This document shows, piece after piece, positions 9,018-26,701 of a DNA stretch of 64,000 nt; position 1 is the first letter of the stretch, and each line of letters begins with the position of its first letter. Where the stretch lies: sequence record AJ697969.1. One strand, given 5' to 3'. Source of the stretch: Pseudomonas phage EL. The position numbers were made by a program, and so were the translations under genes. The notes below the pieces were generated by a model. The model had not been told where the DNA came from and did not search any database. It saw nothing but the letters and a program-made list of their open reading frames with translations.

Positions 9018-9044
9018 TGTGACCCGACATAAGGAATTATCCCA

Positions 9045-10187
9045 ATGGAATACTTAACGACCCAACGAAGTCGATTGTATCCCAACCTGGATACTCGTCT
9101 GGTATTAAACAAAACCATAGGGTGTTCACGTTTCATATGGAACGCTCTACTGGGTAATCATAAGGAAGAATACGGTCTTTGGGTAGAGGATCCAGAAACT
9201 CATCCTAAACCGAGTTGTTCTTTAAGTTCCTTTAATCAAAAGCTGAACGAACTTAAAGTTGAATACCCCTGGTTAAATGAGGTCAGTTCTGTTGCTTTAC
9301 AACAAACAGTTCTTCATTTAACCAAGGCTTTTAGTGAGTTCTTCCAGGGTATTCATGGTTATCCAAAATTTAAATCTAAACGAGATCCCGGTGGATTTAA
9401 CCTCAGTAGTGCAGCGGGAACTTTAGCCAAGGACGGCAAGATTCGAATCCCCAAGATAAAGGGATACACCACCTGTCGACCTAAGCTCCCGTTGGATCAG
9501 GAAATTAGGAACTACAGCATTGTCAAAGACCGGGTTGGGAATTACTTTGTCAATTGCTTAGTAACTAAACCTTGTCTACCGAATACGGCTAAAGGTCAAG
9601 GACTGGTGGGGGTTGATCTGGGGATTAAATCCTTAGCGGTGGCGAAGCGGTCTACAGGTGAAATCTTTACCTTGGAGAATCCTCGAACCTACATGAAGTA
9701 CCACCGTAGACGTGTACGACTTCAACGGCGATTAGCCAAGAAACAGAAAGGGAGTCAAAACCGTAATAAAGCTAGAATTAAACTGGCCAAACTAGAACGT
9801 AAGGTCGGCAATATTCGCAAGAACACCCTGGATACCTTCACCTCTAAACTGATTAGCGAAAACCAAGTAATCAGTATTGAGGATTTGAATGTTAAAGGGA
9901 TGCTGAAAAACAGCCGGTTGGCTAAGCATATCCAAGACTGTGGATTTAGCACCCTCCGGAGGATGTTGGAACACAAGGCTAAACGGTATGAATCACCGGT
10001 TATTATTAGCCTGGTCCATCGATTTTACCCCAGCACCCAGTGTTGTTCAGCGTGTGGTATTAAACGTGAGATCAAACTGACCCTTAATGACCGGGAATGG
10101 ACCTGCGCTGAATGCGGGACCTCTCACGACAGAGACATCAATGCTGCAACGAATATCCTGTATGAAGGACTTCGGTTAGTGGTCTGA
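9045..10187 (+). CDS. tnpB: TnpB (IS200/IS605-family OrfB, RuvC-like nuclease with zinc ribbon)
   Basis: N-terminus RLYPNLDTRLVLNKTIGCSRFIWNALL (OrfB N-domain); RuvC-I VGVDLGIKSLA; RuvC-II ISIEDLNVKGM; zinc ribbon CCSACGIKREIKLTLNDREWTCAECG; RuvC-III HDRDINAATNI. Confidence 0.85.
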   Translation: MEYLTTQRSRLYPNLDTRLVLNKTIGCSRFIWNALLGNHKEEYGLWVEDPETHPKPSCSLSSFNQKLNELKVEYPWLNEVSSVALQQTVLHLTKAFSEFFQGIHGYPKFKSKRDPGGFNLSSAAGTLAKDGKIRIPKIKGYTTCRPKLPLDQEIRNYSIVKDRVGNYFVNCLVTKPCLPNTAKGQGLVGVDLGIKSLAVAKRSTGEIFTLENPRTYMKYHRRRVRLQRRLAKKQKGSQNRNKARIKLAKLERKVGNIRKNTLDTFTSKLISENQVISIEDLNVKGMLKNSRLAKHIQDCGFSTLRRMLEHKAKRYESPVIISLVHRFYPSTQCCSACGIKREIKLTLNDREWTCAECGTSHDRDINAATNILYEGLRLVV

Positions 10188-10361
10188 TAGAAAATTTACT
10201 CTTTGGAGTAACTACCGAAGCCTACTCGGGATGTTAAGCCTGTGGAGCATCAGTGCGGTTAAGCTGAGCAATGAAGCAGGAAGTTTGAGGTTAAAACATT
10301 GGGATAAAGACAGTCTTAACTCATTATTGAAAAGACTGCTGTTGACTGTAATGGAGCCGTT
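9045..10361 (+). mobile_element. solo tnpB element (IS1341-like; TnpA absent) with 174-nt structured 3' non-coding region (candidate omega-RNA / right end)
   Basis: intact tnpB with no Y1 transposase in the window; the 3' region 10188-10361 contains an imperfect hairpin (GACAGTCTT...AAGACTGCT) and has no long ORF; element boundaries are not determinable from a single copy. Confidence 0.45.
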
Positions 10362-12668
10362 ATGAGTAAAGAAAAATTGAATCAGGACCTGAAAGGTGTA
10401 AGTAGTGAGATCCGTGCCGCACTGGGTGCAGAGGATACGGATCTTACCCCTGACAGTGCAGCGGGTCAATTCCTCCAGGAAGTCCGTTACAAGTATCCCT
10501 GCGGGGAGAATCAAATCCATCCTGCTTTAGTGGGTGTCAGCAGTAACCTGATTCTCTTCCCGCACGAAGCCTCCGCGGGTCGTCTCTATATGGCGGGTAA
10601 CATGATCCCTAAATCCGTGCCGACCGAAGGAGCGGGTGAACGGATGATGGTAACCGGGTACGAATTTGAGGAACATTACGGTGGAACGGCTCGTAAGGTC
10701 GAAGCCCCTGCGAATATGCTGGTGGAAGAGATCTTCTTCGTTCAGAGTCTGGTTCCGGGTAAGGATACGGATGACTGGAATTCGATTTACGTGGTCTTTA
10801 AGAACGACGAACAGAACGCCTACGACCTTCTGGAGCTACCTCGGTATAACACCCATAACCACTACGTTGGGTTCGAATATAAATACGATAAAGAGAAACT
10901 CCGTAAGCTCCGTAAAGGTGCCACTTTCGCTAAAGGGACCGTCTTCGCTAAGAGTCCCCGTATCAGTGAGAATGGGGAATGGTGTTTTGCAATGCCGACC
11001 TTGGTAGCCGCCTATTCGGACCAAAGGACTGAGGAGGATGGCGTGCTTATCACCCGTTCCTATGCGGAACGTTCGGCTTGTATGTTCAAGCACGAGTTCA
11101 GCTATGAATGGAATGAGGATGAATGGATTCCTCTGATGCTGTACGGAACGGACGAGAACCCCCAACCGCTCCCTGAGTCGGGTGATAACATCCGTGAGGA
11201 TGGGATCGTCATGGGCTTCCGTCGCCGCATCAAAGAGAACGCGCTGGTTTCCCTGACCAAGAAGTCCCTACGAGAACCGGATCTGGTGTACGACAAGTTG
11301 TTCTATGCGCCGGTGGATGCGGTTGTGATGTCAGTCACTGTTCGGTCGGATCGGATGAAGAACCGGTCCAATAACCGGGGAACGGATTACATCGAACAAC
11401 ACCACAATGCCATGCTGGACCGCTATGAGAAACGCCAGAATGAAATGTGGAACAATGTGATCCGGTGGTACGAAGGGAAGATCGCTGCCAACCGCGGGGA
11501 AGACATTCCCATTACCTTTGACCTCGATACCTTCATTCGGAACGCGTATGGTAACTATACCCGCAATGGGTTGGGTCGTATTAACCCGTTGGCCCGAGTG
11601 GAACGGTGGGATAAACTGAAAGATTGGAACGTGACCATCGAACTGAAGGAACGGGTCAAAGGTCGTGTTAAATTCAAGTACGCGGGTTTGAACGGTGACA
11701 AAGGGGTGTGTGTACGGGTCATTGAAGACGACGAAGCTCCCACCTATCCGGATGGGACTCGGGCGGAGTTCATTAAAGATAACGTACCGGCGTTCCGTCG
11801 CCAGATCTTTTCGTTGCTCATGGAACTGAGTATCAACTATGTGAACATGAACGTTCAACGGGAAGTCAGACACCTACGGCTACAAGGGGATTATGAAGGC
11901 GCTTTCCAGGCGTTGATGACGTTCTATGAAACCGGTTTCCCTGAATTCAGTGAATTGGTTGCTCATGCGTTGGTTACGGAGGAGGAGAAACGTGAGCACG
12001 TCGACGATGTCTGTCGCCGGAAGATTTCCGTGCATGTGGTCAGTAACACGAAGTTGTATGGCGTGAACCTGATCAACGCCCTGCGTCGTCAATACCCGTA
12101 TAAGCCGCAGAAAGCCATTATCGTGAACGCACTGGGAGAACGGGTGGAAACCGAGAACCCTATCCTTATCAGCTGTCAGGACATTATGCTCCTGGATAAG
12201 TTTGGTACGGACATGAGTGCGCAGAGTATGCCGAAGGCTAACCTCTTTGGTATGCCAGCGAAGATGAACGAAGGCAGTAAATACGCCACCCCCATGAAAG
12301 ACAGTAATAACAAGAATACCGGTGAAACCGAAGGCCGGTTGCAAGTCAGTCACGCGGGCGGGCAGGAAATGATCAAGCAACTGGCTCTGGCGTATTCCCC
12401 CGAGAACCAGAAAAAAGCCTCCCAACGGGTTATTCGTGCGGATGATCCGTTTGAGATTCCTCGGTTGATTAAACCGGAGGAGTATTTGGGGAATCGGGCG
12501 TTGAAAATGGCGGTGGGAATGTTGTCGGATTCGGGTTATCGGCTGCGAGCTGAACTACCCAGTGATCGTCGGGAATATCCAACCTTTAACATGGATGAAA
12601 TCCCAGGGTTAGATGACGAGACCTTGAAGCAGCTTCAGTCATCCGAGAAACCCACTCAAGAACCTTAA
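10362..12668 (+). CDS. multisubunit RNA polymerase beta-subunit homolog, N-terminal/middle fragment
   Basis: the segment RLYMAGNMIPKSVPTEGAGERMMVTG aligns to RpoB fork-loop-2 / beta-D-loop ([14 protein letters not shown]...[12 protein letters not shown]); 768 aa; followed immediately by the second beta fragment. Confidence 0.55.
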   Translation: MSKEKLNQDLKGVSSEIRAALGAEDTDLTPDSAAGQFLQEVRYKYPCGENQIHPALVGVSSNLILFPHEASAGRLYMAGNMIPKSVPTEGAGERMMVTGYEFEEHYGGTARKVEAPANMLVEEIFFVQSLVPGKDTDDWNSIYVVFKNDEQNAYDLLELPRYNTHNHYVGFEYKYDKEKLRKLRKGATFAKGTVFAKSPRISENGEWCFAMPTLVAAYSDQRTEEDGVLITRSYAERSACMFKHEFSYEWNEDEWIPLMLYGTDENPQPLPESGDNIREDGIVMGFRRRIKENALVSLTKKSLREPDLVYDKLFYAPVDAVVMSVTVRSDRMKNRSNNRGTDYIEQHHNAMLDRYEKRQNEMWNNVIRWYEGKIAANRGEDIPITFDLDTFIRNAYGNYTRNGLGRINPLARVERWDKLKDWNVTIELKERVKGRVKFKYAGLNGDKGVCVRVIEDDEAPTYPDGTRAEFIKDNVPAFRRQIFSLLMELSINYVNMNVQREVRHLRLQGDYEGAFQALMTFYETGFPEFSELVAHALVTEEEKREHVDDVCRRKISVHVVSNTKLYGVNLINALRRQYPYKPQKAIIVNALGERVETENPILISCQDIMLLDKFGTDMSAQSMPKANLFGMPAKMNEGSKYATPMKDSNNKNTGETEGRLQVSHAGGQEMIKQLALAYSPENQKKASQRVIRADDPFEIPRLIKPEEYLGNRALKMAVGMLSDSGYRLRAELPSDRREYPTFNMDEIPGLDDETLKQLQSSEKPTQEP

Positions 12669-12707: not shown

Positions 12708-15700
12708 ATGGTAATGAAGATCAAACTCCGTGAATGGGCTAATTTACCAGAAGAAACTGTTCTCCGTTGGTTAAACACCCGCCGGTGGGTGGAGGTCACG
12801 GATGACCTGGACCAAGTCGCTCTAACGGATACCTACGCTCTGATCATTACCTGGCATGGAATGATCATCCACCGGCATTATAACGATGTCCCCTATTCCA
12901 TTAAGGAGATGGTACCCAGTAACAAGGTGGAAGGGGGTGAAGACACCGTCTATAACGATGGAACCAACGCGACGCCTATTAACCAGTTCTTAAAGGTCAT
13001 TCTTCCTACGATTATTGACCCGGTGGAAGTGGACGGGATTAAACGGCTTATTCATATCTGGCAGAATAAGCTGAATAACCTGCTGGTGGTGATGAGTGAA
13101 CGTTACGTTATTTCAGCCACCGCTGAATCCGTAGCGGAGTTCATGGAAGATGAAGGGATCTCTGGAATACGGGACCGTGTCCTGAGCAAGGAGATTTCAA
13201 TTGATGAGGGTGAGCGGGAGTTTGCGGATTATGTCCGGACCGCTCATTCCATTGCCAACAACACCCTCACCCTGCTGTCGCGTACGGGCGGGGTGGCCAT
13301 TAACCAGGCGTATCAGAAGACGATCATCCGGGGTAAAGTCTTTGACCTGAACAACTCGATCATGCCGAATGCGATTACGGTTCCGTATGCGCATGGGATT
13401 ACCAACCTGGCTGATATGCTGGGTGAACGGAATGCAGCAGGTAAAGCCGGGGTTTTGTCTTCAAAGATAAAAATCCCTGGTGGATGGAAGACCATGGGTA
13501 ACATCCGGGTGGGTGATGAAGTCGTTACACCCGATGGAGGTACCGCTAAGGTGCTGGCAGTTCACCCACAAGGTGTAACCAAGGTTGTACGGGTGCACTT
13601 CAAAGACGGTCGATATACTGACGTTAGTCCAGATCACCTGTGGAAGGTTAGACGTCATCATTGGTGCAACGATAAAGCCATGGCTAAACTCACTCGGGAG
13701 GAAGTGGAAGAACGTGTATGGCGAGTCATCACCACCAATGAGTTGAAAGACTATATTGGTCTGTCAACTAAGGTATACGTCCAACTGATTGAACCTGAAA
13801 GAAATGCCGATAAACCCTTCAAAATTCACCCGTATGTGCTCGGTGTCTTGTTGGGGGATGGATGCATTAGTCAAAAGGCTGTGGATATCACCAAACCTTA
13901 TCAACAGCTATTCGATAAGGTCCAATCGCTATTGCCAGAACATTTGGAATGTGTTTGGCGACCCAACCGTAAAGGTGATGGAGAACCTAAAACGTTTGGG
14001 ATCCGTTTTAAAGATCGTCGGTCCGAACAGCACATCAACTGGCATATCCGTGATGGCCTGAAGGAACTGGGCTTGTATGGAATGCGGTCGTGGGGAAAAG
14101 TCATTCCCGAAGAATATCTTCACGGATCGGCTAAACAACGTTTGGAGCTCCTCCAAGGACTGTTGGACACAGACGGAACTGTGGACAAACACAAATCGGT
14201 TAGCTTTAGCTCTTCGTCTAAGTTACTCTCCCTCGGAGTGCAATACTTGGTCAGAAGCCTAGGGGGGATGGCACGTCTCCAAGAACGTACTCCCCACTAC
14301 ACCCACAATGGAGAAAAAAGGGAAGGTCGTACGGACTATCGGGTTTATATCCGATACCCTCGACCAGAAGAACTCTTCACCCTAGACCACAAACGGGAAC
14401 GTGCGGTCTCGCACCAGCATACGGAAACCCTGAGACTGCAAGTAACTCATATTGAAGAACGTCCTGATGAGGAGACACAATGCATTACGATCGATCATCC
14501 TGATCATCTGTACATTACAGACGACTTCATTGTCACCCACAACAGCCTAACCAATAACGGCAAGGCCCTGAAATCATCGGAATGGTTCCACCGGAAGGTA
14601 CACATCCTGTCCGCTGTGGTGGCGGATATCGATCATTTCATGGACTGTGGAACGACCACTACAGTGCCGATCCGAATTCCCAATATGCAAGCGGCAATGG
14701 CACTGTTGGGTAAATTCAGGGTAACCGATACAGGAGAATTAGAACTCATTGATCAAACCACGGTGTGGTCAATTAAGCCAGGGGAGTGGGTTAATATTCG
14801 TAGTGTGGCCTTCTGTAATCACTACAATAGTGCTTCACCCTGCCGGGTATGCTACGGGATGATGGCGAGCTCTATCCCGTATAACGTGATGATGAAGAAA
14901 GGGGCTGATGTCGGGATGTGGTGTACCACCTCGATCTGTAACCCCATCGGCCAGGGAATGCTCTCCACCAAGCATTTCATTAGGAATGCAACGACCCGTA
15001 AGTTCGTTCCTGCGACTAAGGATAAGAACGTTATCTATTCCAATGGTGACGATATTTTCCTGACTAAGGAACTCTGTGCACCGGGCACTGAATTGGTGCT
15101 CAAAGCCGATATTGTAAACATCCTCTCGGATATCCGTTCCTTGGATGTTCTGGACAACTTGAGCCTGGATAAACTCCCGTACTTCTCTGAAGTCACATTC
15201 CGCTATGAAGTCGAAGACATCATGATGGGGGGTAAAACCCTCCAGCAGCATGCGGCTTGTACCTCGGTGTCGTCTCGGAATGCCCGGTTCTCGTTGGAGT
15301 TCCTGAACTATCTCCTGAGTAAAGGTTGGGCGAACGAAGGTAAGAAACATATTACCGTTGATTTGAGTGAATGGAATACGCTCAGTCCTATCTTCACACT
15401 GCCGTATGTTCGTGAAGACTTGGACATGCACCGGGCTCGGGTAGAGAACTTCATCACGTTCAATAAACGCAATAACGCCTGGAGACAGCAGATCGTTACA
15501 CCCCGTCTCTTTGGTGAGGTCTTAGCGGAATACTGGGGATTGATCAACCAGGAAACGAAAGGGATTAACATCATCCATCCTGAGGTCTTGCTCTATTCCA
15601 CGTTGTGTCGGGATCCCATGCGCGGGGATTATTCCCTGGCGAATGGTAAAGGACCTAAGTATTTCGTGAACTTCCAGGAGTGTATCAAAGGCAGGGGGGC

Positions 15701-15818
15701 GGGTATGCTCATGATCTACGAGAACCAGCAAAATGTGCTAAGTGATCCTAAGACATTCCGTGTGGTAAACCGTCAGGGGAGTCCGCTGGAGTGCTTCTTT
15801 AGCTTAGCGGTGAGTTGA
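12708..15818 (+). CDS. RNA polymerase beta-subunit homolog, C-terminal fragment, interrupted by an intein (precursor 1036 aa)
   Basis: the N-extein ends GERNAAGKAGVLS (candidate counterpart of RpoB GRHGNKGVIS); the C-extein contains NPIGQG (compare RpoB NIGQ); it sits next to the beta N-fragment; it contains a full intein (see separate feature). The beta assignment of this half is weaker than for 10362-12668. Confidence 0.5.
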   Translation: MVMKIKLREWANLPEETVLRWLNTRRWVEVTDDLDQVALTDTYALIITWHGMIIHRHYNDVPYSIKEMVPSNKVEGGEDTVYNDGTNATPINQFLKVILPTIIDPVEVDGIKRLIHIWQNKLNNLLVVMSERYVISATAESVAEFMEDEGISGIRDRVLSKEISIDEGEREFADYVRTAHSIANNTLTLLSRTGGVAINQAYQKTIIRGKVFDLNNSIMPNAITVPYAHGITNLADMLGERNAAGKAGVLSSKIKIPGGWKTMGNIRVGDEVVTPDGGTAKVLAVHPQGVTKVVRVHFKDGRYTDVSPDHLWKVRRHHWCNDKAMAKLTREEVEERVWRVITTNELKDYIGLSTKVYVQLIEPERNADKPFKIHPYVLGVLLGDGCISQKAVDITKPYQQLFDKVQSLLPEHLECVWRPNRKGDGEPKTFGIRFKDRRSEQHINWHIRDGLKELGLYGMRSWGKVIPEEYLHGSAKQRLELLQGLLDTDGTVDKHKSVSFSSSSKLLSLGVQYLVRSLGGMARLQERTPHYTHNGEKREGRTDYRVYIRYPRPEELFTLDHKRERAVSHQHTETLRLQVTHIEERPDEETQCITIDHPDHLYITDDFIVTHNSLTNNGKALKSSEWFHRKVHILSAVVADIDHFMDCGTTTTVPIRIPNMQAAMALLGKFRVTDTGELELIDQTTVWSIKPGEWVNIRSVAFCNHYNSASPCRVCYGMMASSIPYNVMMKKGADVGMWCTTSICNPIGQGMLSTKHFIRNATTRKFVPATKDKNVIYSNGDDIFLTKELCAPGTELVLKADIVNILSDIRSLDVLDNLSLDKLPYFSEVTFRYEVEDIMMGGKTLQQHAACTSVSSRNARFSLEFLNYLLSKGWANEGKKHITVDLSEWNTLSPIFTLPYVREDLDMHRARVENFITFNKRNNAWRQQIVTPRLFGEVLAEYWGLINQETKGINIIHPEVLLYSTLCRDPMRGDYSLANGKGPKYFVNFQECIKGRGAGMLMIYENQQNVLSDPKTFRVVNRQGSPLECFFSLAVS
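13446..14543 (+). other. intein 1: Hint splicing domain with inserted LAGLIDADG homing endonuclease; class-3-like (WCT) intein
   Basis: block A-like KIKIPGGWKTMGNIRVGDEVVTPDG; block B SPDHLW (Trp at B:12); LAGLIDADG motifs PYVLGVLLGDGCIS (~13828-13870) and RLELLQGLLDTDGTVD (~14143-14190); block F ETQCITIDHPDH (Cys at F:4); block G DDFIVTHN (Thr at G:5), +1 Ser at 14544. The N-terminal boundary is ambiguous between 13446 (A) and 13461 (S) because there is no N-terminal Cys. Confidence 0.75.
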
Positions 15819-15845
15819 GTGGGTGACCCCGTTCGTTAGTGTGGA

Positions 15846-15881
15846 CCTCTTAAGGGGGTCCTCGGAATCCCCCTTAAGAGG
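15846..15881 (+). terminator. hairpin (13-bp stem CCTCTTAAGGGGG / CCCCCTTAAGAGG, 10-nt loop) between the RNAP-beta gene and the helicase gene
   Basis: perfect inverted repeat 28 nt after the stop; there is no T-run and it abuts the next start codon, so it may act as terminator/attenuator or an RNA processing site. Confidence 0.45.
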
Positions 15882-15887
15882 TTGATT

Positions 15888-18170
15888 ATGCGAGCAACAG
15901 CAACTATCAGCAAAGCGAATCATTACTTCAGAATCAACGGGTTCTATGAGGAATTCGCGGTTCGGGTAATCCTACCGTTTTGTAAACTGAATCTCTGCAA
16001 GATGGCTAAGAAGCCAATACCGGGTACCCGGAAGCAGGCGTGGTTTGTTCAACACGTCTTTGCTCGGTCGAATTATGACAAGAGTGAATACCGGCTACCC
16101 ATTGAAACCCTTAAAGAGTTTGTGGAATTTGCGGGCTACCGGGGGTATAAAGAATCCCGCTTGAAGATTCAGGATGAACCGGAGATCGAAGGCAAGGATG
16201 TTGTATTCGAATTCAATCCAGGGTTTGATCAGTTCAGGGAAGGTCAAGGTGAATGGATTGAGTACATGCTGAGCGATGGGCACCTGAAGGTCAATAACGC
16301 CTCCACAGGCTTTGGGAAGATGCAACCGCTGTACGCGAAGATCAAAGTCCCGGGTGGTTGGAAGACAATGAGGGAGATGACCGTCGGTACCGAGGTCATT
16401 GCAGCGGATGGTACGGTCACTCAGGTGACTGGTGTTTACCCACACGGTAAACAACCCATTTACCGTTTGCACTTCGAAGACGGGCGTTATACCGATGCAG
16501 GACTGGATCACCTGTGGAAAGTGTTCACAGAGGAGACTCAGGCATGGACAGTCGTTAATACCCGTTCCGTACAGACCCTGTTGGCGAAAGAGCCGGATGG
16601 GGTATTTATCCCTCTGTGTGAGCCTGAAGACGGTCCGGAGAAGCCCTTTGTAACGGACCAATTGGAAGGTTCCCGCCAACAACGGTTGGAACACCTACGA
16701 CGACTCATGGATGAGAAAGGGTATGTGCGTGATGACGGTAGTCTGTCCTTTTCCAGTGAGGATGAGGTGGAAAGCACTACGGTTCAATACCTGGTTAGGA
16801 GTCTAGGGGGTATTGCCCGAAAGGTACCGTCTACAGGACTGTACCGCCGCAGGCAATACCGGGTGTACATCAAGCACCCTCGTCCTGAGGAACTCTTTAC
16901 CCTGACGAATAAGGGTGGCTACCTGACATCAAAGTCGGGTAACCAGTCCCTTAAGCTCCGGGTGAACCGCATTGAATTCATTGGGGAACATGAAGCCCAG
17001 TGCATCTCTGTAGCACACCCGGATCGTCTGTACATCACGGATGACTTCATCGTCACCCACAACACCTATATGGCCATCCACAGCATGGTGAAGATTGGTA
17101 AACGGACCTTAATCACCATGCAACCCCGTTACCAGATCAATTGGGTACGGGAACTCAACAAGATCGTTAAACTCATTCCAGGGGATCTCTTAATCTGGGA
17201 GAATACCCTGGAATCGTTGTATGAGTGTTTAGAAGACGGGAAGTTTGATCCTAAGATCATTATTATTCCGATGTCTCGTATTGAGGTCTTCCTCCGTAAA
17301 GGGAAAGAGACCCGAGACGGGTTACACATGGATGATTTGATCAAACGGATCAATCCGGGATTAAGGATCATTGATGAAGGGCATGAAGCGATTCATCAGA
17401 TCTTCTTGTCCTTAATGTTTGGGAATATCAAGAAACTCTTCCTGCTCTCAGCCACCTTGAAAGCAGACGATCCCTTTACGAACAAGATGTACCAGTACTT
17501 GTTCCCTAAACGGTTACGGTTAAAGGAGGCGGAACCCGAGCATTACATCGATGTAGTGGCGTACCTGTATCGCCTCAACACCCGTCGTTATCATCTCAAG
17601 ACGGAGCAGTTTGGAGCGTATAACGATAAGACGTTTGAAAAGAGCATCTTAAAGTCGGGTGTACTCCTGGCATTCTACTTTAAATTGGTCAATAAGGCCT
17701 TTAAGGAGTATTACCTCAATGTGAGGCGTGAAGGAACGAAGTGTTTGTTCTTCTTCTCCAGGGTCAGTATGTGCGATGCCATGTTGGAACTGTTCAGGAA
17801 AGAATATCCCGGCTGGGATTTCGAAACCTTTACTGGGGACGATTCCAAGCTGAAAGATAAGAAGGACAAGTACTTAAAGCACGAGATCATCATTACAACT
17901 CCGAACAGTTGTGGAACAGGTAAGGATATCGGGGGGTTGGTGACGGTGATCTGCGCCCACACGGTTGCGTCGACTCAGGCTAATAAGCAGATCATTGGAC
18001 GACTCAGGGCGTTGTCGGGTAAGTTCAATAATGAGATCGACCCTGCCTTTGTGTTCCTGGTGTGTTTGGACTTAGCGAAGCACGTGGAATATTTAGCCAA
18101 ACGGGAACAGGTGTTCTTTGAGAAACAGAAGACCTTCAAGCGTATCAATTCGGAATGCTCCCTGGACTGA
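15888..18170 (+). CDS. SF2 (DExH-box) helicase/ATPase interrupted by an intein
   Basis: motif I NASTGFGK (completed to GFGKT if the intein is excised at K|T); motif II RIIDEGHEA (DEGH); motif III LFLLSATL (SAT). ATG at 15888 preferred over the TTG at 15882. Confidence 0.6.
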   Translation: MRATATISKANHYFRINGFYEEFAVRVILPFCKLNLCKMAKKPIPGTRKQAWFVQHVFARSNYDKSEYRLPIETLKEFVEFAGYRGYKESRLKIQDEPEIEGKDVVFEFNPGFDQFREGQGEWIEYMLSDGHLKVNNASTGFGKMQPLYAKIKVPGGWKTMREMTVGTEVIAADGTVTQVTGVYPHGKQPIYRLHFEDGRYTDAGLDHLWKVFTEETQAWTVVNTRSVQTLLAKEPDGVFIPLCEPEDGPEKPFVTDQLEGSRQQRLEHLRRLMDEKGYVRDDGSLSFSSEDEVESTTVQYLVRSLGGIARKVPSTGLYRRRQYRVYIKHPRPEELFTLTNKGGYLTSKSGNQSLKLRVNRIEFIGEHEAQCISVAHPDRLYITDDFIVTHNTYMAIHSMVKIGKRTLITMQPRYQINWVRELNKIVKLIPGDLLIWENTLESLYECLEDGKFDPKIIIIPMSRIEVFLRKGKETRDGLHMDDLIKRINPGLRIIDEGHEAIHQIFLSLMFGNIKKLFLLSATLKADDPFTNKMYQYLFPKRLRLKEAEPEHYIDVVAYLYRLNTRRYHLKTEQFGAYNDKTFEKSILKSGVLLAFYFKLVNKAFKEYYLNVRREGTKCLFFFSRVSMCDAMLELFRKEYPGWDFETFTGDDSKLKDKKDKYLKHEIIITTPNSCGTGKDIGGLVTVICAHTVASTQANKQIIGRLRALSGKFNNEIDPAFVFLVCLDLAKHVEYLAKREQVFFEKQKTFKRINSECSLD
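16320..17063 (+). other. intein 2: mini-intein related to intein 1 with degenerate homing-endonuclease remnant; class-3-like (WCT)
   Basis: AKIKVPGGWKTMREMTVGTEV; GLDHLW (Trp); a single LAGLIDADG-like remnant RLEHLRRLMDEKGYVRDDG; YLVRSLGGIAR...YRVYIKHPRPEELFTL almost identical to intein 1; EAQCISVAHPDRLYITDDFIVTHN (Cys at F:4, Thr at G:5), +1 Thr at 17064. The N-boundary is 16320 (M, which yields a perfect GFGKT P-loop) or 16335 (A). Confidence 0.7.
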
Positions 18171-19557: not shown

Positions 19558-20859
19558 TTATTTCAATGCCATCTCCAAGTCTAAGAGGTTCGTACGGCTG
19601 CCCGCTGTGTGGTGTGCCTTCATGCGCTGCAATAAAAATGCAGTAGGAATCAAGACCACCTCAGAGCTGAGACGATGCCCTAAAGCCCCTAGACCTTCCC
19701 CACAACAGGTCTTACAATAGTAACCGTCCTTTAGGGTACAGAACTGAGGGACTCTGGCTTGTACGGGTTTATTAACGTAACGATCCAGGTTTTCAGCGGT
19801 GAGCTGTATCAGGACTTTCCCATCCTGGATCCACGTTCCTACCCAGTATCCTTTATTGGTTGGTAGGATCGTAACGGTTTCGGTCACCGGGGTACCGCAA
19901 TCCACGACATCCTCGCTAACGGCCGTACGGCCTATTAGACGCAACGTTTCCTTAACCCTAGCCCCACCTTCACCGGTGGACATAGAACGGCTGTAAGAGC
20001 CCTCTACGGCCGTGTTAATGTAGTCTGCCAAGAAGTTCGGATCCCAACCCTCCGCCAGGGAGTTAGGGAGCAGTACCCAACCGTCTCCTGAGGCATTGGG
20101 TTCAATACCGAAGGAAATGAACATCCGTTTACGCGAGTTGTCAATAAACTTCTTTGCAATAAAGAACTTACGGCTAGGACCAGACATTACGATCTTCATG
20201 TCCAGCGCCACACACTGATCAATAATCGAGGTAGCAACAACCGGATCATTGAGTTCGTCTTTATGCTCTTTAAAGAGACGATCCCTGAGTTTAATGACTT
20301 CAGGACTCACCGTTAGGGCATCTACTCCACCCGGTTTAATGAAGTGAGACCCTAACCCTTCCAGGAACTGGCAGTTATGGGAGAACTTCAAACACTGGTC
20401 TACACTGGCCTTCCCTTCAGGTACCGCTTCCCCCGGTGGGGGATTATCCACCATGAGAGTTTCCAAGATCTTCAAGATAACCGGTTTGGTGAACTCCTGG
20501 TTAAGGTAGGGTTGGGTCTTCCCGAAGCATTCCCAGAAGAGGATAACGTTGAAGAGTAAGAGTCCAAAGGTAGTCGTGACCGCTTTACCTTGCAACACGG
20601 GATGGAAGTCTCCCGGGAGTTCCAGGATTTCATCCATGTAGAACAGGGGTTCATTCACCTCCCCATTTACGGTATGGGTAGAACCCTCTACCACGACATT
20701 GAACCGATTATCCTCCACAAAGACAGCATAGGGGTATTTCTTGAACTGTCCAGAGGAATCTTCGTCTTCAAACTGGATAGTAATAATCGATTGAATAGCC
20801 GCCTTTTCGTTATAGGCTCGGTTATTCAGAAAGAGTTTAAGGTAGTCGAGTTTAGTCAT
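19558..20859 (-). CDS. hypothetical protein (433 aa; C-terminal Cys cluster CKTCCGEGLGALGH)
   Basis: long minus-strand ORF with an ATGA overlap onto the upstream minus gene. Confidence 0.65.
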   Translation of the reverse strand: MTKLDYLKLFLNNRAYNEKAAIQSIITIQFEDEDSSGQFKKYPYAVFVEDNRFNVVVEGSTHTVNGEVNEPLFYMDEILELPGDFHPVLQGKAVTTTFGLLLFNVILFWECFGKTQPYLNQEFTKPVILKILETLMVDNPPPGEAVPEGKASVDQCLKFSHNCQFLEGLGSHFIKPGGVDALTVSPEVIKLRDRLFKEHKDELNDPVVATSIIDQCVALDMKIVMSGPSRKFFIAKKFIDNSRKRMFISFGIEPNASGDGWVLLPNSLAEGWDPNFLADYINTAVEGSYSRSMSTGEGGARVKETLRLIGRTAVSEDVVDCGTPVTETVTILPTNKGYWVGTWIQDGKVLIQLTAENLDRYVNKPVQARVPQFCTLKDGYYCKTCCGEGLGALGHRLSSEVVLIPTAFLLQRMKAHHTAGSRTNLLDLEMALK

Positions 20860-24979: not shown

Positions 24980-25588
24980 ATGTCCAACGATTACAAAGCA
25001 CCTGAGGTTACTGACCTCGGTAAGAAAGAAGAAAGTCCGAAGACCCAACCTACGCCTTCCATCCCCAATACGGTGGCTAAGGCTCAGGGTGCTAAATTCG
25101 AACCCGTACCTCTCCGTATTGGCATTGGCCAAATGGTCAATGGCAAAGGTAATGCGGTCACGGATATCATGAAAGAACGGATTGACCGTCACCTGACCTA
25201 CCTGGCCGGTAAGAAAGGCTTCACCAGTGATAGTGAACGGGAGGATGAACAAACCTCCTTTATCGAGATCATTGGTTCTACACTGACCCTTCCGTTTCCC
25301 CAGTACGTCATCGTTACTGACTACCTGTTGGCGGTTATCCGGGAGAACCGGGAAATCTTTGCCAACGGTACGGCATTCCGCTTTACCTACAAGCTCCGTA
25401 AGGAGTACCCGATAGAGAACGTTAAACTCTATCACACCTACATGACCTTCCTGACGTTCATCGCGGGTAACTGGGAAGCTCGTCATCGCCTTAACCGCAT
25501 CATTGATCTGGGAACGGCTATCCGCGATCTTCCTCGTAAGGGCAAAGAGAACGCCACCCAGTACTTCAATAAGCTGCAAAACGTTTGA
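24980..25588 (+). CDS. hypothetical protein
   Basis: 202-aa ORF; the plus strand is preferred over the antisense 533-aa shadow ORF. Confidence 0.6.
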   Translation: MSNDYKAPEVTDLGKKEESPKTQPTPSIPNTVAKAQGAKFEPVPLRIGIGQMVNGKGNAVTDIMKERIDRHLTYLAGKKGFTSDSEREDEQTSFIEIIGSTLTLPFPQYVIVTDYLLAVIRENREIFANGTAFRFTYKLRKEYPIENVKLYHTYMTFLTFIAGNWEARHRLNRIIDLGTAIRDLPRKGKENATQYFNKLQNV

Positions 25589-25624
25589 TTTCCCTTTAGA
25601 CTCTTTATCCAAGGAACGCTTCCA

Positions 25625-26701
25625 ATGGACAGTGTTGTACTTACCGAAGAAGACGGTAATGGTTATGAAATCCCGGATCTCCCTCATATCGGGATTGTGT
25701 ATGATGCGCTTAACGATACCCTGGATCAAGTGGATCGGGGTGTTGCAGGTACGGAAAGCCTGACCGCCTCCCAACAGTACCTGGTGGGTGCACTCGCTGC
25801 GAACCGACCTGGTTACTCGGTGACCGGTAACGAAGGCTTTATGGCCAATATCGGTGCAGGTCTTAAAGCCGCGTATGACTACGTGGTGAAGATGTTCAAG
25901 AGCCTCTGGGACTTCTTCTTCAAGCGTGATGTCTCTCAGAAGACCTCGGATGCTAAGAAGGAGATTGATGACCTCCAGACAAAACTGGAGGTGGTTCAGA
26001 CCGGGGGTAAGACGGAAGCGGAAACCCAGGAAGCCCTGCACTCCATGAAGGTCCAGGTTAAGGAACAGGCACAATCTGGCTTTAACATCGACGGGGTAGA
26101 CGCAGAAGAATGGGTGGAGAAAGAGACGAAGGCCTCCGCTACCCATGAGGAGAAGAAAGTCGCGGTTAAGACCCTGGCCAGAGAGCTTCCTAAGGTCAAC
26201 ACCCGGGGCAAGAAACGCCTCCAAGGTGTCATTGAGCGGATGATCAAAACTCAGCAATATTTGGTCAGTGTGATTGATATCGCCGATAAAGAAGCTCGGG
26301 AAACCCTGAATGAAAACCTCATGCGGGTAACGGACTCTATGAAACTCCTCCGCACCAATGTTCATCAGTCTACTGAGCAACTGAGTCGAGTGAAAGACGT
26401 CAAAGACCTGACGGCTGTACACAACGTCATGAACGGTGTTATTAAAGAGATCGATACCTTTAAGAATGCTGCTCAGGCCGTGCAGAGTGTTCGCGGCAAA
26501 ATGGCTGACAAGATTAAGATCGTTGAACAGCAATTGGCCGAGGTGGCTAAAGGTGGAGGTGACACCAAAGCGACTCAAGCAGCGCTGGATGAACTCCGCA
26601 AGATCATGAACTTCCTGGTTAAATGCGGTAAATGTATTACTAACATCATTGAAGACAGTGTGAAGCTCCAGAAAGCCTTTAATGGTGTCTTCGGGCTGTA
26701 A
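25625..26701 (+). CDS. paralog-family protein (probable virion/head protein); coiled-coil rich
   Basis: contains the family motif TGNE-GFMANIGAGLKAAYDYVVKMFKSLWDFFF shared with 30459, 41677 and 43061. Confidence 0.6.
   Translation: MDSVVLTEEDGNGYEIPDLPHIGIVYDALNDTLDQVDRGVAGTESLTASQQYLVGALAANRPGYSVTGNEGFMANIGAGLKAAYDYVVKMFKSLWDFFFKRDVSQKTSDAKKEIDDLQTKLEVVQTGGKTEAETQEALHSMKVQVKEQAQSGFNIDGVDAEEWVEKETKASATHEEKKVAVKTLARELPKVNTRGKKRLQGVIERMIKTQQYLVSVIDIADKEARETLNENLMRVTDSMKLLRTNVHQSTEQLSRVKDVKDLTAVHNVMNGVIKEIDTFKNAAQAVQSVRGKMADKIKIVEQQLAEVAKGGGDTKATQAALDELRKIMNFLVKCGKCITNIIEDSVKLQKAFNGVFGL

What the first reader, a model, noticed from the sequence alone, without database searches (positions are those of the whole stretch)
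13446..17063. Two closely related class-3-like (WCT) inteins in adjacent RNAP-beta and SF2-helicase genes, one with an intact and one with a decayed LAGLIDADG endonuclease
Both proteins carry an insertion beginning ...KIK[IV]PGGWKTM...VGxEV..DG with block B [SG][PL]DHLW. Both end in near-identical text, YLVRSLGG[MI]AR...YRVYI[RK][YH]PRPEELFTL...Q/A-C-I-[TS]...LYITDDFIVTHN, followed by Ser or Thr. Neither has a Cys/Ser at the position equivalent to residue 1. Both have Trp two residues after the block-B His, Cys at block F position 4, and Thr before the terminal HN. This is the WCT signature of class 3 inteins, which splice through a branched intermediate on the block-F Cys. Intein 1 retains both LAGLIDADG motifs; intein 2 retains only a degenerate second motif (LMDEKGYVRDDG). 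That pattern is consistent with one homing intein having spread ectopically within the genome and the second copy decaying to a mini-intein. Both insertion points directly follow a Lys in a nucleotide/phosphate-binding motif (AAGK| in the beta-like protein, GFGK| in the helicase). Excision at K|T restores a canonical Walker A GFGKT in the helicase.
Basis: partly seen in the sequence, partly recalled or inferred. Interest (0 to 1): 0.75.

Follow-up and report, generated by a model that had tools for sequence, protein, structure and literature searches.

The report
Two class-3 inteins in phage EL
Two adjacent essential genes of Pseudomonas jumbo phage EL (an RNA polymerase beta-prime fragment and a helicase) are each interrupted by a self-splicing class-3-type intein, a known kind of phage element whose only unusual feature here is that one copy sits in the polymerase bridge helix rather than in an ATP-binding loop.

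Summary
The window is Pseudomonas phage EL. A 98%-identical phage (vB_PaeM_GXNNE2) has both genes without the insertions, and the gaps fall exactly at 13446-14543 (366 aa) and 16320-17063 (248 aa). Both insertions start with a non-nucleophile (Ala, Met) and follow a Lys. Both carry His-x-Trp in block B, Cys at block F4 and Thr-His-Asn at the end, followed by Ser or Thr. These residues align with the catalytic residues of the solved class 3 DnaB inteins. Predicted folds are HINT plus LAGLIDADG (pLDDT 93).

Intein 1 has both endonuclease motifs intact. Intein 2 lacks the first half-domain and has Lys where the catalytic Asp of the second motif should be.

Corrections:
- Host 1 is the beta-prime C-terminal half of the non-virion RNA polymerase (phiKZ gp74 homologue), and the insertion lies inside its bridge helix, not in a nucleotide-binding motif.
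- The two inteins are about 50% identical and never sisters in bootstrapped trees.
- Intein 1's closest relatives sit in the Walker A of orthologous helicases in other jumbo phages.
- EL-type genomes carry four such inteins.

This is a known kind of element (class 3, phage-borne, spreading to non-allelic sites). Interest is moderate to low.

The parts
12708..13445 (+). N-extein of the non-virion RNA polymerase beta-prime C-terminal subunit (EL YP_418072; phiKZ gp74 homologue), ending ...GERNAAGK
   Evidence: Exact match to the EL protein. The intein-free form hits PDB 7OGP_D PHIKZ074 at E 1.5e-30 and phrog_3015 at E 1e-217.
13446..14543 (+). Intein 1, 366 aa, class-3 signature, with a full LAGLIDADG homing endonuclease. 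It is inserted in the beta-prime bridge helix between Lys246 and Ser.
   Evidence: Exact gap against the GXNNE2 allele. PDB sequence hits to class 3 DnaB inteins 6BS8 and 6RIX. AF2 pLDDT 93.3, and Foldseek top hits are PI-SceI and TliVMA.
13608..13649 (+). Intein 1 block B (GRYTDVSPDHLWKV): His64 at B10, Trp66 at B12
   Evidence: Aligned to His65/Trp67 of MchDnaB1. His is invariant and Trp at least 90% conserved in 66 homologues.
13833..13868 (+). Intein 1 LAGLIDADG motif 1 (YVLGVLLGDGCI)
   Evidence: The GDG is at least 90% conserved in the family alignment. The region matches PI-SceI residues 206-385.
14142..14183 (+). Intein 1 LAGLIDADG motif 2 (LELLQGLLDTDGTV)
   Evidence: Pfam LAGLIDADG_3 scores 43.7 bits against a 22.5 cutoff. 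D-x-D-G is invariant in 66 homologues.
14472..14543 (+). Intein 1 blocks F and G (ETQCITIDHPDHLYI..DDFIVTHN): Cys346 at F4, Thr364 at G5, His365, Asn366
   Evidence: Aligned to Cys124/Thr143-His-Asn of MchDnaB1. C, T, H and N are invariant in 66 homologues.
14544..15818 (+). C-extein of beta-prime-C, starting with Ser(+1)LTNNGKALKSSEWFHRK (rest of the bridge helix, Zn finger, trigger loop region)
15882..16319 (+). N-extein of the SF2-type DNA helicase (the gene next to YP_418072), ending ...NNASTGFGK (first part of Walker A)
   Evidence: The intein-free form hits phrog_16 DNA helicase at E 2.6e-49.
16320..17063 (+). Intein 2, 248 aa, class-3 signature, with a half-deleted and catalytically dead LAGLIDADG remnant. 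It is inserted in Walker A between Lys146 and Thr.
   Evidence: Exact gap against the GXNNE2 allele. PDB hits to 6RIX, 6RIY and 6BS8. AF2 pLDDT 93.1; the HINT part matches 6BS8_B at TM 0.87 and rmsd 2.4.
16482..16523 (+). Intein 2 block B (GRYTDAGLDHLWKV): His64, Trp66
16686..16727 (+). Intein 2 degenerate LAGLIDADG motif 2 (LEHLRRLMDEKGYV). Lys replaces the catalytic Asp, and motif 1 plus about 100 aa are missing.
   Evidence: Aligns to LELLQGLLDTDGTV of intein 1. There is no Pfam LAGLIDADG hit. The model shows a single alpha-beta-beta-alpha-beta-beta half-domain.
16992..17063 (+). Intein 2 blocks F and G (EAQCISVAHPDRLYI..DDFIVTHN): Cys228 at F4, Thr246, His247, Asn248
17064..18170 (+). C-extein of the helicase, starting with Thr(+1)YMAIH. 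It completes Walker A (GFGKT).
   Evidence: Helicase_C gives a weak hit of 20.4 bits, below its cutoff.

Best explanation
Both insertions are genuine inteins of the class 3 (WCT) type, belonging to a large phage-borne family that normally sits between the Lys and the Ser/Thr of Walker A loops.

Proposed splicing mechanism (inferred from the family, not shown here):
1. The block-F Cys (Cys346 in intein 1, Cys228 in intein 2), activated by the block-B His and Trp and the block-G Thr, attacks the Lys(-1)-residue 1 peptide bond. This gives a thioester branched intermediate.
2. The N-extein is passed to the +1 Ser (RNAP) or Thr (helicase).
3. The terminal Asn cyclises.
4. An O-to-N shift restores the native bridge helix (..NAAGK-SLTNNGK..) or Walker A (..GFGK-TYM..).

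Intein 1 carries an apparently functional two-motif LAGLIDADG homing endonuclease, so it should still home into empty alleles. Intein 2 has lost one endonuclease half-domain and the catalytic Asp of the other. It can persist only by vertical descent, recombination, or co-conversion with its neighbour 1.8 kb away.

The RNAP site is a non-allelic target that mimics a P-loop at both protein level (A-G-K|S) and DNA level (GGTAAA|AGC against GGTAAA|ACC in helicase sites). It was most likely colonised from a helicase Walker A intein circulating among EL-related jumbo phages, not copied from EL's own decayed helicase intein.
For: Boundaries:
- Intein-free alleles in a 98%-identical phage have exact junctions.

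Class 3 signature:
- His, Trp, Cys and Thr-His-Asn align with the catalytic residues of the solved class 3 inteins MchDnaB1 and MsmDnaBi1.
- The definition of class 3 is taken from PMC2807308 and PMC5050341.

Family context:
- The 120 best homologues (33-55% identical, full length) almost all read GxGK|A...H-x-W...C...THN|T/S inside PhoH, AAA, SNF2, RecA or ABC ATPases.
- Invariant columns in the 66-sequence alignment are H64, C346, T364, H365 and N366, plus D-x-D-G of the second LAGLIDADG motif. The first-motif GDG is at least 90% conserved.

Structure:
- AF2 models have pLDDT 93.
- They match PI-SceI-type bifunctional inteins, and the HINT parts match class 3 DnaB inteins.

Host identity:
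- phiKZ gp74 homology and the published bridge-helix coordinates.

Origin:
- The nearest relatives of intein 1 sit in the Walker A of orthologous helicases: ZK_P1 gp46 at 65% identity and L012 at 62%.
- The same bridge-helix site is occupied in three diverged metagenomic relatives.
- All four presence/absence combinations of the two sites occur.
- The two kinds of target site share a DNA core.
- Non-allelic spread of class 3 inteins is already described (PMC10710043).
Against: - No biochemical data: splicing, the block-F branched intermediate and endonuclease activity are all inferred.
- Grafting WCT onto a class 1 intein does not by itself give splicing (PMC7664689), so the signature alone is not proof of mechanism.
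- Standard Hint and intein-splicing HMMs do not reach threshold on either insertion.
- The intein tree is poorly resolved. Intein 1 + ZK_P1 is recovered in 45-84 of 200 bootstraps and a monophyletic RNAP-site clade in 5-8 of 200, so the direction and number of site switches are uncertain.
- Outside the 9-nt core the two target sites share little DNA (12-18 of 36 nt).
Confidence: 0.85

Rival explanations
1. One reading: one intein copied itself from one gene to the neighbouring gene within the EL genome, and the second copy then decayed, so the two are each other's direct descendants.
For: The two inteins are clearly homologous (E 2e-39). They lie 1.8 kb apart, share the -1 Lys and +1 Ser/Thr context, and fall in the same wider clade of jumbo-phage inteins. 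The faster evolution of a decaying copy could hide a sister relationship.
Against: - They are only about 50% identical over 221 shared columns.
- They were never recovered as sisters in 2 x 200 bootstraps.
- Intein 1 is 62-65% identical to helicase-site inteins of other phages.
- Intein 2 groups with a metagenomic intein, P0019, in 171 of 200 bootstraps.
- In L012 the two inteins of one genome are also not sisters (0/200).
- Each site is occupied independently in relatives.
Confidence: 0.12
2. They are inteins but do not use the class 3 route. For example, the +1 Ser/Thr could attack the N-terminal junction directly (class 2-like), with the WCT residues only structural.
For: Mechanism is inferred from sequence only. 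Residue 1 is Ala in intein 1, as in class 2 KlbA inteins.
Against: Class 2 inteins lack the WCT triplet by definition. In every WCT intein tested (MP-Be DnaB, Dra Snf2, MP-Catera gp206, Msm and Mch DnaBi1) the block-F Cys is obligatory. Cys F4 is invariant in 66-70 homologues.
Confidence: 0.06
3. One or both insertions are dead inteins (pseudo-inteins) or permanent domain insertions that stay in the mature protein.
For: A non-splicing class-3-like intein pseudogene is documented (Arth_1007, PMC3196547). Intein 2 is visibly decaying in its endonuclease part.
Against: - The insertions split a bridge helix and a Walker A loop of proteins that relatives keep uninterrupted.
- All splicing residues are intact in both inteins.
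- Six viable phage isolates carry them.
- Both HINT domains are predicted with pLDDT above 90.
Confidence: 0.03

Closest known systems
Class 3 DnaB inteins of mycobacteria (MsmDnaBi1, PDB 6BS8; MchDnaB1, PDB 6RIX/6RIY) and mycobacteriophage Bethlehem DnaB intein
   Same: - They are the best solved-structure sequence matches for both EL inteins.
- Both start with a non-nucleophile.
- His-x-Trp, Cys F4 and Thr-His-Asn fall in register.
- The insertion follows the Walker A Lys with Ser/Thr at +1; the MchDnaB1 N-extein is modelled as SVGK.
- The fold is HINT.
   Different: The mycobacterial DnaBi1 inteins are mini-inteins without an endonuclease. Sequence identity to them is low and confined to the splicing blocks. 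One EL copy is in an RNA polymerase rather than an ATPase.
P-loop ('classic Lys|Thr') class 3 inteins with LAGLIDADG endonucleases in phage terminases, SNF2/SF2 helicases and PhoH (for example mycobacteriophage TerL1-a, Dra Snf2, PhiPA3 gp233)
   Same: They share the full-length architecture (HINT-N, two-motif LAGLIDADG, HINT-C). Identity is 33-57% over the whole intein. They have the same GK|A...THN|T junctions. 601 phage records carry relatives.
   Different: Intein 1's host site is the beta-prime bridge helix. No hit among the 120 best homologues was in a polymerase. [quoted passage not shown]
PI-SceI / TliVMA / PI-PfuI bifunctional intein-homing endonucleases
   Same: These are the best structural matches for the whole intein 1 model (Foldseek E 5e-16, TM 0.66-0.69). 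The domain arrangement is the same.
   Different: They are class 1 inteins (Cys1), have only 14-16% identity, and have different hosts.
Inteins in RNA polymerase large subunits of archaea, fungi, amoebae and giant viruses (RpoA'', RPB2, RPA1 and others)
   Same: Each is an intein interrupting a catalytic subunit of a multisubunit RNAP. NCBIfam's intein-containing RpoA'' model gives a weak endonuclease-region hit.
   Different: As far as I know those are class 1 inteins at other sites. No relationship of the splicing domains was found here.

Membership tests
Class 3 (WCT) inteins | No Cys/Ser/Thr nucleophile at intein residue 1 | tested here: met
   The boundaries are fixed by intein-free alleles. 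Intein 1 starts with Ala and intein 2 with Met.
Class 3 (WCT) inteins | Trp at block B position 12 (two residues after the block B His) | tested here: met
   DHLW in both inteins. His64/Trp66 align to His65/Trp67 of MchDnaB1. Trp is at least 90% conserved in homologues.
Class 3 (WCT) inteins | Cys at block F position 4 | tested here: met
   Cys346 and Cys228 align to Cys124 of MchDnaB1 and to the Cys of MsmDnaBi1. The position is invariant in 66-70 homologues.
Class 3 (WCT) inteins | Thr at block G position 5, followed by His-Asn | tested here: met
   VTHN in both inteins, aligned to the THN of the solved class 3 inteins.
Class 3 (WCT) inteins | Ser or Thr (rarely Cys) as first C-extein residue | tested here: met
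   Ser613 in the RNAP subunit and Thr395 in the helicase.
Class 3 (WCT) inteins | HINT fold | tested here: met
   AF2 pLDDT 93. The HINT parts match 6BS8, 6RIX and 6RIY at TM 0.75-0.87 normalised to the target. Pfam and NCBIfam Hint/intein HMMs did not reach threshold.
Class 3 (WCT) inteins | Splicing that absolutely requires the block F Cys and passes through a block F thioester branched intermediate | not testable with these tools
   This needs expression and mutagenesis. It is inferred only from the signature and from characterised relatives.
LAGLIDADG (DOD) homing endonucleases, two-motif monomeric type | Two LAGLIDADG motifs, each ending in a catalytic acidic residue before Gly | tested here: met
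   This row applies to intein 1 only. It has LLGDG and LLDTDG; LAGLIDADG_3 scores 43.7 bits against a 22.5 cutoff; D-x-D-G is invariant and the motif 1 GDG is at least 90% conserved in the family. Intein 2 is tested in the next row.
LAGLIDADG (DOD) homing endonucleases, two-motif monomeric type | The same feature, tested for intein 2 | tested here: not met
   Motif 1 and about 100 aa are absent. Motif 2 reads LMDEKG, with Lys in place of Asp. There is no Pfam hit. The model shows one half-domain only.
LAGLIDADG (DOD) homing endonucleases, two-motif monomeric type | Site-specific cleavage of the empty allele, and homing | not testable with these tools
   The only indirect evidence is the presence/absence polymorphism at identical junctions among 97-99% identical phages.
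Multisubunit RNAP beta-prime, C-terminal fragment (phiKZ gp74 type) as host of intein 1 | Homology to gp74, including the bridge helix | tested here: met
   7OGP_D at E 1.5e-30 and AR9 7S00_D at E 2e-6. EL ..AAGK|SLTNNGKALKSSEWFHRK aligns with AR9 ..GARKALITNYQQVRNSGYLTRK. The gp74 bridge helix spans L242-Y279.
SF2 helicase as host of intein 2 | Walker A GxGKT and a helicase C-terminal domain | tested here: inconclusive
   GFGKT is restored after excision. phrog_16 DNA helicase hits at E 2.6e-49. Pfam Helicase_C scores 20.4 bits, below its 23.5 cutoff, and there is no PDB sequence match.

The most novel reading that the evidence does not exclude
Class 3 inteins were described as confined to helicase-like P-loop proteins. 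Here they have colonised the catalytic bridge helix of a phage multisubunit RNA polymerase by exploiting a GK|S P-loop mimic. The resulting precursor could make assembly of the non-virion RNAP depend on a redox-sensitive Cys-initiated splicing step. That would be a post-translational timer or stress gate on middle and late transcription in a nucleus-forming jumbo phage, analogous to the oxidative-stress control reported for MsmDnaBi1.
Probability: 0.08. Interest if true: 0.6.

Novelty: new member of a known kind. Interest (0 to 1): 0.33.

Why it matters
Practical value:
- The two genes are mis-annotated in public records as terminase large subunit, putative ATP-dependent DNA helicase, LAGLIDADG endonuclease or RNAP beta subunit, because the intein dominates similarity searches.
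- The exact junctions given here allow correct extein models of the EL nvRNAP beta-prime-C subunit and of the helicase.

Biological value:
- It is a clean natural example of a P-loop-specialised class 3 intein lineage occupying a non-ATPase target that mimics its usual junction.
- Empty and filled alleles, and intact and decayed endonucleases, are all available in cultured, nearly identical phages.
- This makes a convenient system for measuring homing, co-conversion of a linked endonuclease-dead intein, and class 3 splicing with Ala1 versus Met1.

It does not change the current picture of inteins.

Tried and rejected
- **Standard profile searches.** Pfam found only LAGLIDADG_3 and Hom_end in protein 1 and no Hint or intein-splicing family in either protein. 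NCBIfam intein_Cterm scored 10.8 bits against a 15.6 cutoff. I did not treat this as evidence against inteins, because phmmer against the PDB, the family alignment and the fold all agree.
- **SNP cluster at site 1.** There are four synonymous differences within 6 nt on either side of the intein 1 insertion point between EL and intein-less GXNNE2 (binomial P about 7e-5). This looked like a homing or resistance footprint. However, the intein-containing HHBS47_1 shares three of the four with GXNNE2, so only AAA versus AAG at Lys(-1) tracks intein state. I dropped it as evidence.
- **Intein phylogeny.** Neighbour-joining trees of 15-20 inteins cannot resolve whether the bridge-helix inteins are monophyletic, or which helicase intein was the donor.
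- **Hitchhiking of intein 2.** Among sequenced Elvirus isolates both inteins are present or both absent, which fits hitchhiking on intein 1 homing. More distant relatives show all four combinations, so any linkage is short-range at most.
- **Literature.** No held paper mentions inteins of phage EL or a class 3 intein in an RNA polymerase. Tori & Perler 2011 (PMC3133030) and the supplementary tables of Tori et al. 2010 are not held. From memory, InBase lists 'PhiEL ORF39' and 'PhiEL ORF40' inteins; I could not verify this.
- **RNA scans.** Rfam and tRNA scans of the window found nothing.

Full report
**Identity of the window.** The 1036-aa product of ORF 12708-15818 is, residue for residue, Pseudomonas phage EL protein YP_418072.1 / CAG27133.1, from a 211,215-bp contig. 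The 5.5-kb region is 97-99% identical to other Elvirus phages of the family Chimalliviridae: phiRU, HHBS47_1, HHBS8_1, IR-QUMS-PaBa1 and MIZ-Pa99. The window is therefore part of the EL genome, published in 2005.

**Checking the observation.** Two Elvirus isolates, vB_PaeM_GXNNE2 and GXNNA8, match only 66% of the query, in three pieces.
- Their two genes encode 670 and 512 aa.
- Protein alignments show one clean gap in each gene: residues 247-612 of EL protein 1 and residues 147-394 of EL protein 2. Flanking sequence is 99-100% identical.
- In window coordinates the insertions are 13446-14543 (366 aa, AGVLSS...VTHN, followed by Ser) and 16320-17063 (248 aa, MQPLYA...VTHN, followed by Thr).
Intein-free orthologues exist, and in them the segment is absent rather than part of the host fold.

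**Are they inteins, and of which class?** By sequence, the best solved-structure matches of both insertions are the class 3 inteins MsmDnaBi1 (6BS8) and MchDnaB1 (6RIX/6RIY), together with the WCT-engineered gp41-1 intein (6RIZ).
- The alignments run from residue 4 of query and chain, so residue 1 is in register.
- They place His64/Trp66 of both EL inteins on His65/Trp67 of MchDnaB1.
- They place Cys346 (intein 1) and Cys228 (intein 2) on Cys124.
- They place the terminal Thr-His-Asn on Thr143-His-Asn.
- These are the residues that the crystallographic study calls the catalytic triad plus the WCT Trp (PMC7664689).

[quoted passage not shown] All of these are met in both inteins.

AlphaFold models built on 66- and 70-sequence alignments are confident (pLDDT 93.3 and 93.1).
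- The intein 1 model matches the bifunctional inteins PI-SceI, TliVMA and PI-PfuI (Foldseek E down to 5e-16).
- The HINT parts match the class 3 DnaB inteins. For intein 2 against 6BS8_B the TM-score is 0.87 and the rmsd 2.4 Å.

Curated Hint and intein-splicing HMMs miss both inteins. This probably explains the inconsistent public annotations. The splicing chemistry itself is inferred, not shown.

**The endonuclease parts.**
- Intein 1 has both LAGLIDADG motifs, with their acidic residues (LLGDG, LLDTDG). It passes Pfam LAGLIDADG_3 at 43.7 bits against a 22.5 cutoff. D-x-D-G is invariant and the motif 1 GDG is at least 90% conserved across the 66-sequence alignment.
- Intein 2 aligns to intein 1 over residues 4-110 and 115-248. 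It lacks the roughly 100 residues that carry motif 1.
- Its surviving motif reads LMDEKG, with Lys where the catalytic Asp should be.
- Its model shows a single alpha-beta-beta-alpha-beta-beta half-domain.
- So the endonuclease of intein 2 is dead. Intein 2 is nevertheless not a minimal intein.

**What the hosts are.** The intein-free form of protein 1 matches phiKZ gp74 (PDB 7OGP chain D, E 1.5e-30) and the AR9 non-virion RNAP chain D.
- gp74 is one of the two beta-prime-like subunits. [quoted passage not shown]
- In the ungapped part of the alignment, EL Lys246|Ser247 corresponds to gp74 Lys254|Ala255, which is inside the bridge helix.
- The AR9 sequence at this point, GARKALITNYQQVRNSGYLTRK, is recognisably the bacterial bridge-helix motif. 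That last statement rests on my own knowledge of the E. coli beta-prime sequence.
- Host 1 is therefore beta-prime (C-terminal half), not beta, and AAGK|S is not a phosphate-binding loop.
- Host 2 is an SF2-type helicase (phrog_16, E 2.6e-49). Here the insertion is the classic Walker A Lys|Thr position.

**The wider family.** A search with intein 1 returned 401 proteins.
- The best 120 are full-length relatives (33-55% identity) embedded in PhoH, AAA, AAA_30, SNF2, RecA, ABC and ClpX-type ATPases.
- Mapping the key positions shows that about 100 of the 120 read GxGK|A...H-x-W...C...THN|T/S.
- In the phage collection 601 records carry relatives, mostly mycobacteriophage terminases and jumbo-phage SF2/SNF2 helicases.
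- Each Elvirus genome has four. Besides the two in the window there is one in the terminase large subunit (QQGK|QQRNS...THN|T) and one in a second, SNF2-like helicase (GSGK|AMPLS...THN|T). Both carry WCT.
- Of the four, only the RNAP copy is outside a Walker A.

**Relationship between the two inteins.** Over 221 shared columns, intein 1 is:
- 65% identical to the intein in Raoultella phage VB_ZK_P1 gp46;
- 62% identical to the intein in the helicase of a 228-kb metagenomic phage (L012).

Both of those hosts are orthologues of the EL helicase, interrupted at the same Walker A site as intein 2, and both inteins have intact endonucleases. The ZK_P1 beta-prime-C orthologue is uninterrupted. Intein 1 is only about 50% identical to intein 2. 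The two were never sisters in two sets of 200 bootstrap replicates, whereas intein 2 groups with a metagenomic helicase-like intein, P0019, in 171 of 200.

**Distribution of the two sites.** The bridge-helix site is occupied in three further diverged beta-prime-C orthologues: P0154, P0168 and P0204 (52-61% extein identity). Their endonucleases are degenerate, and two have Arg or Ser in place of the penultimate His. All four occupancy combinations of the two sites occur:
- EL: both occupied.
- GXNNE2: neither occupied.
- ZK_P1: helicase only.
- L010: RNAP only.
- L012 and L013: both occupied.

The tree does not resolve how many site switches occurred. The data favour a lineage of homing-competent P-loop inteins circulating among EL-related phages that can also use the bridge-helix site. 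In EL, intein 2 would be an old, decaying resident and intein 1 a younger, intact one.

**Why the bridge helix?** In intein-less orthologues the site reads [GSA][SA]GK[SA]L (for example GSGKS), which mimics the end of a Walker A. Some lineages have GKA or GMS there and could not support splicing. At the DNA level the RNAP and helicase targets share GGTAAA|A(G/C)C and little else. An endonuclease tolerant of flanking variation, plus an intein that needs Lys(-1) and Ser/Thr(+1), would explain the jump. This is inference. Non-allelic spread of class 3 inteins between unrelated hosts has been proposed before (PMC10710043; PMC5050341).

**Novelty and score.** Class 3 inteins, their phage association, their P-loop preference, endonuclease decay and non-allelic spread are all established.
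- EL's own genome paper, as I recall its abstract, already mentioned LAGLIDADG endonucleases associated with inteins. I also recall InBase entries for PhiEL ORF39 and ORF40. Neither could be checked here.
- Public annotations already flag these genes as 'intein-containing' or 'Hint domain-containing'.
- What I did not find described is that one host is the RNAP beta-prime bridge helix. This is a counter-example to the 2010 statement that such inteins occur only in helicase-like proteins.
- I therefore rate the finding as a new, or at least newly characterised, member of a known kind, with modest interest (0.33).

Noticed in passing
window 9018-10320: A 1.3-kb insertion is present in EL but absent from GXNNE2 and HHBS47_1. 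It carries a TnpB/OrfB_IS605 gene (9045-10187; Pfam OrfB_IS605, Cas12f1-like_TNB, HTH_OrfB_IS605) with no TnpA, and lies just upstream of the nvRNAP beta-C gene. The 133 nt after the stop codon could encode its guide (omega) RNA, but there is no Rfam hit.
   Followed up: partly
outside the window; HHBS47_1 L006 ~541-1482 and L008 ~25040-25825 (- strand): Elvirus genomes carry two more class-3 (WCT) inteins. One is in the terminase large subunit Walker A (QQGK|QQRNS...THN|T, 313 aa). The other is in a second, SNF2-like helicase (GSGK|AMPLS...THN|T, 262 aa). They are only 29-40% identical to the two in the window.
   Followed up: partly
L010 3264-6212; L012 5001-7946; L013 2034-4799: Metagenomic EL-related jumbo phages have inteins at the same beta-prime bridge-helix GK|S site. 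Their LAGLIDADG motifs are degenerate. Two of them have a non-canonical penultimate residue (TRN|S and TSN|S instead of THN|S).
   Followed up: partly
window 13439-13444 and 14547-14663: Synonymous differences between EL and intein-less GXNNE2 cluster around the intein 1 insertion point: four within 6 nt on either side, and eight in the first 120 nt downstream. Intein-containing HHBS47_1 shares most of the GXNNE2 states, so the cluster does not track intein presence.
   Followed up: yes
window 10362-12668, 12708-15818, 19558-20859 (-); public records H4, H6, H7: Public annotations of these genes are inconsistent and partly wrong. The intein-less GXNNE2 genes are labelled 'terminase large subunit, intein-containing'. 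UniProt calls the beta-prime-C protein 'Putative ATP-dependent DNA helicase'. All RNAP fragments are labelled 'beta subunit', whether they are beta-like or beta-prime-like.
   Followed up: no
L003 (Pseudomonas phage vB_PQ1, PQ516283.1): This 184-kb record matches the region in many short pieces. It has fragmented ORFs and numerous 'CRISPR' repeat_region annotations inside coding genes. It looks like a poor-quality or error-rich assembly rather than real biology.
   Followed up: no
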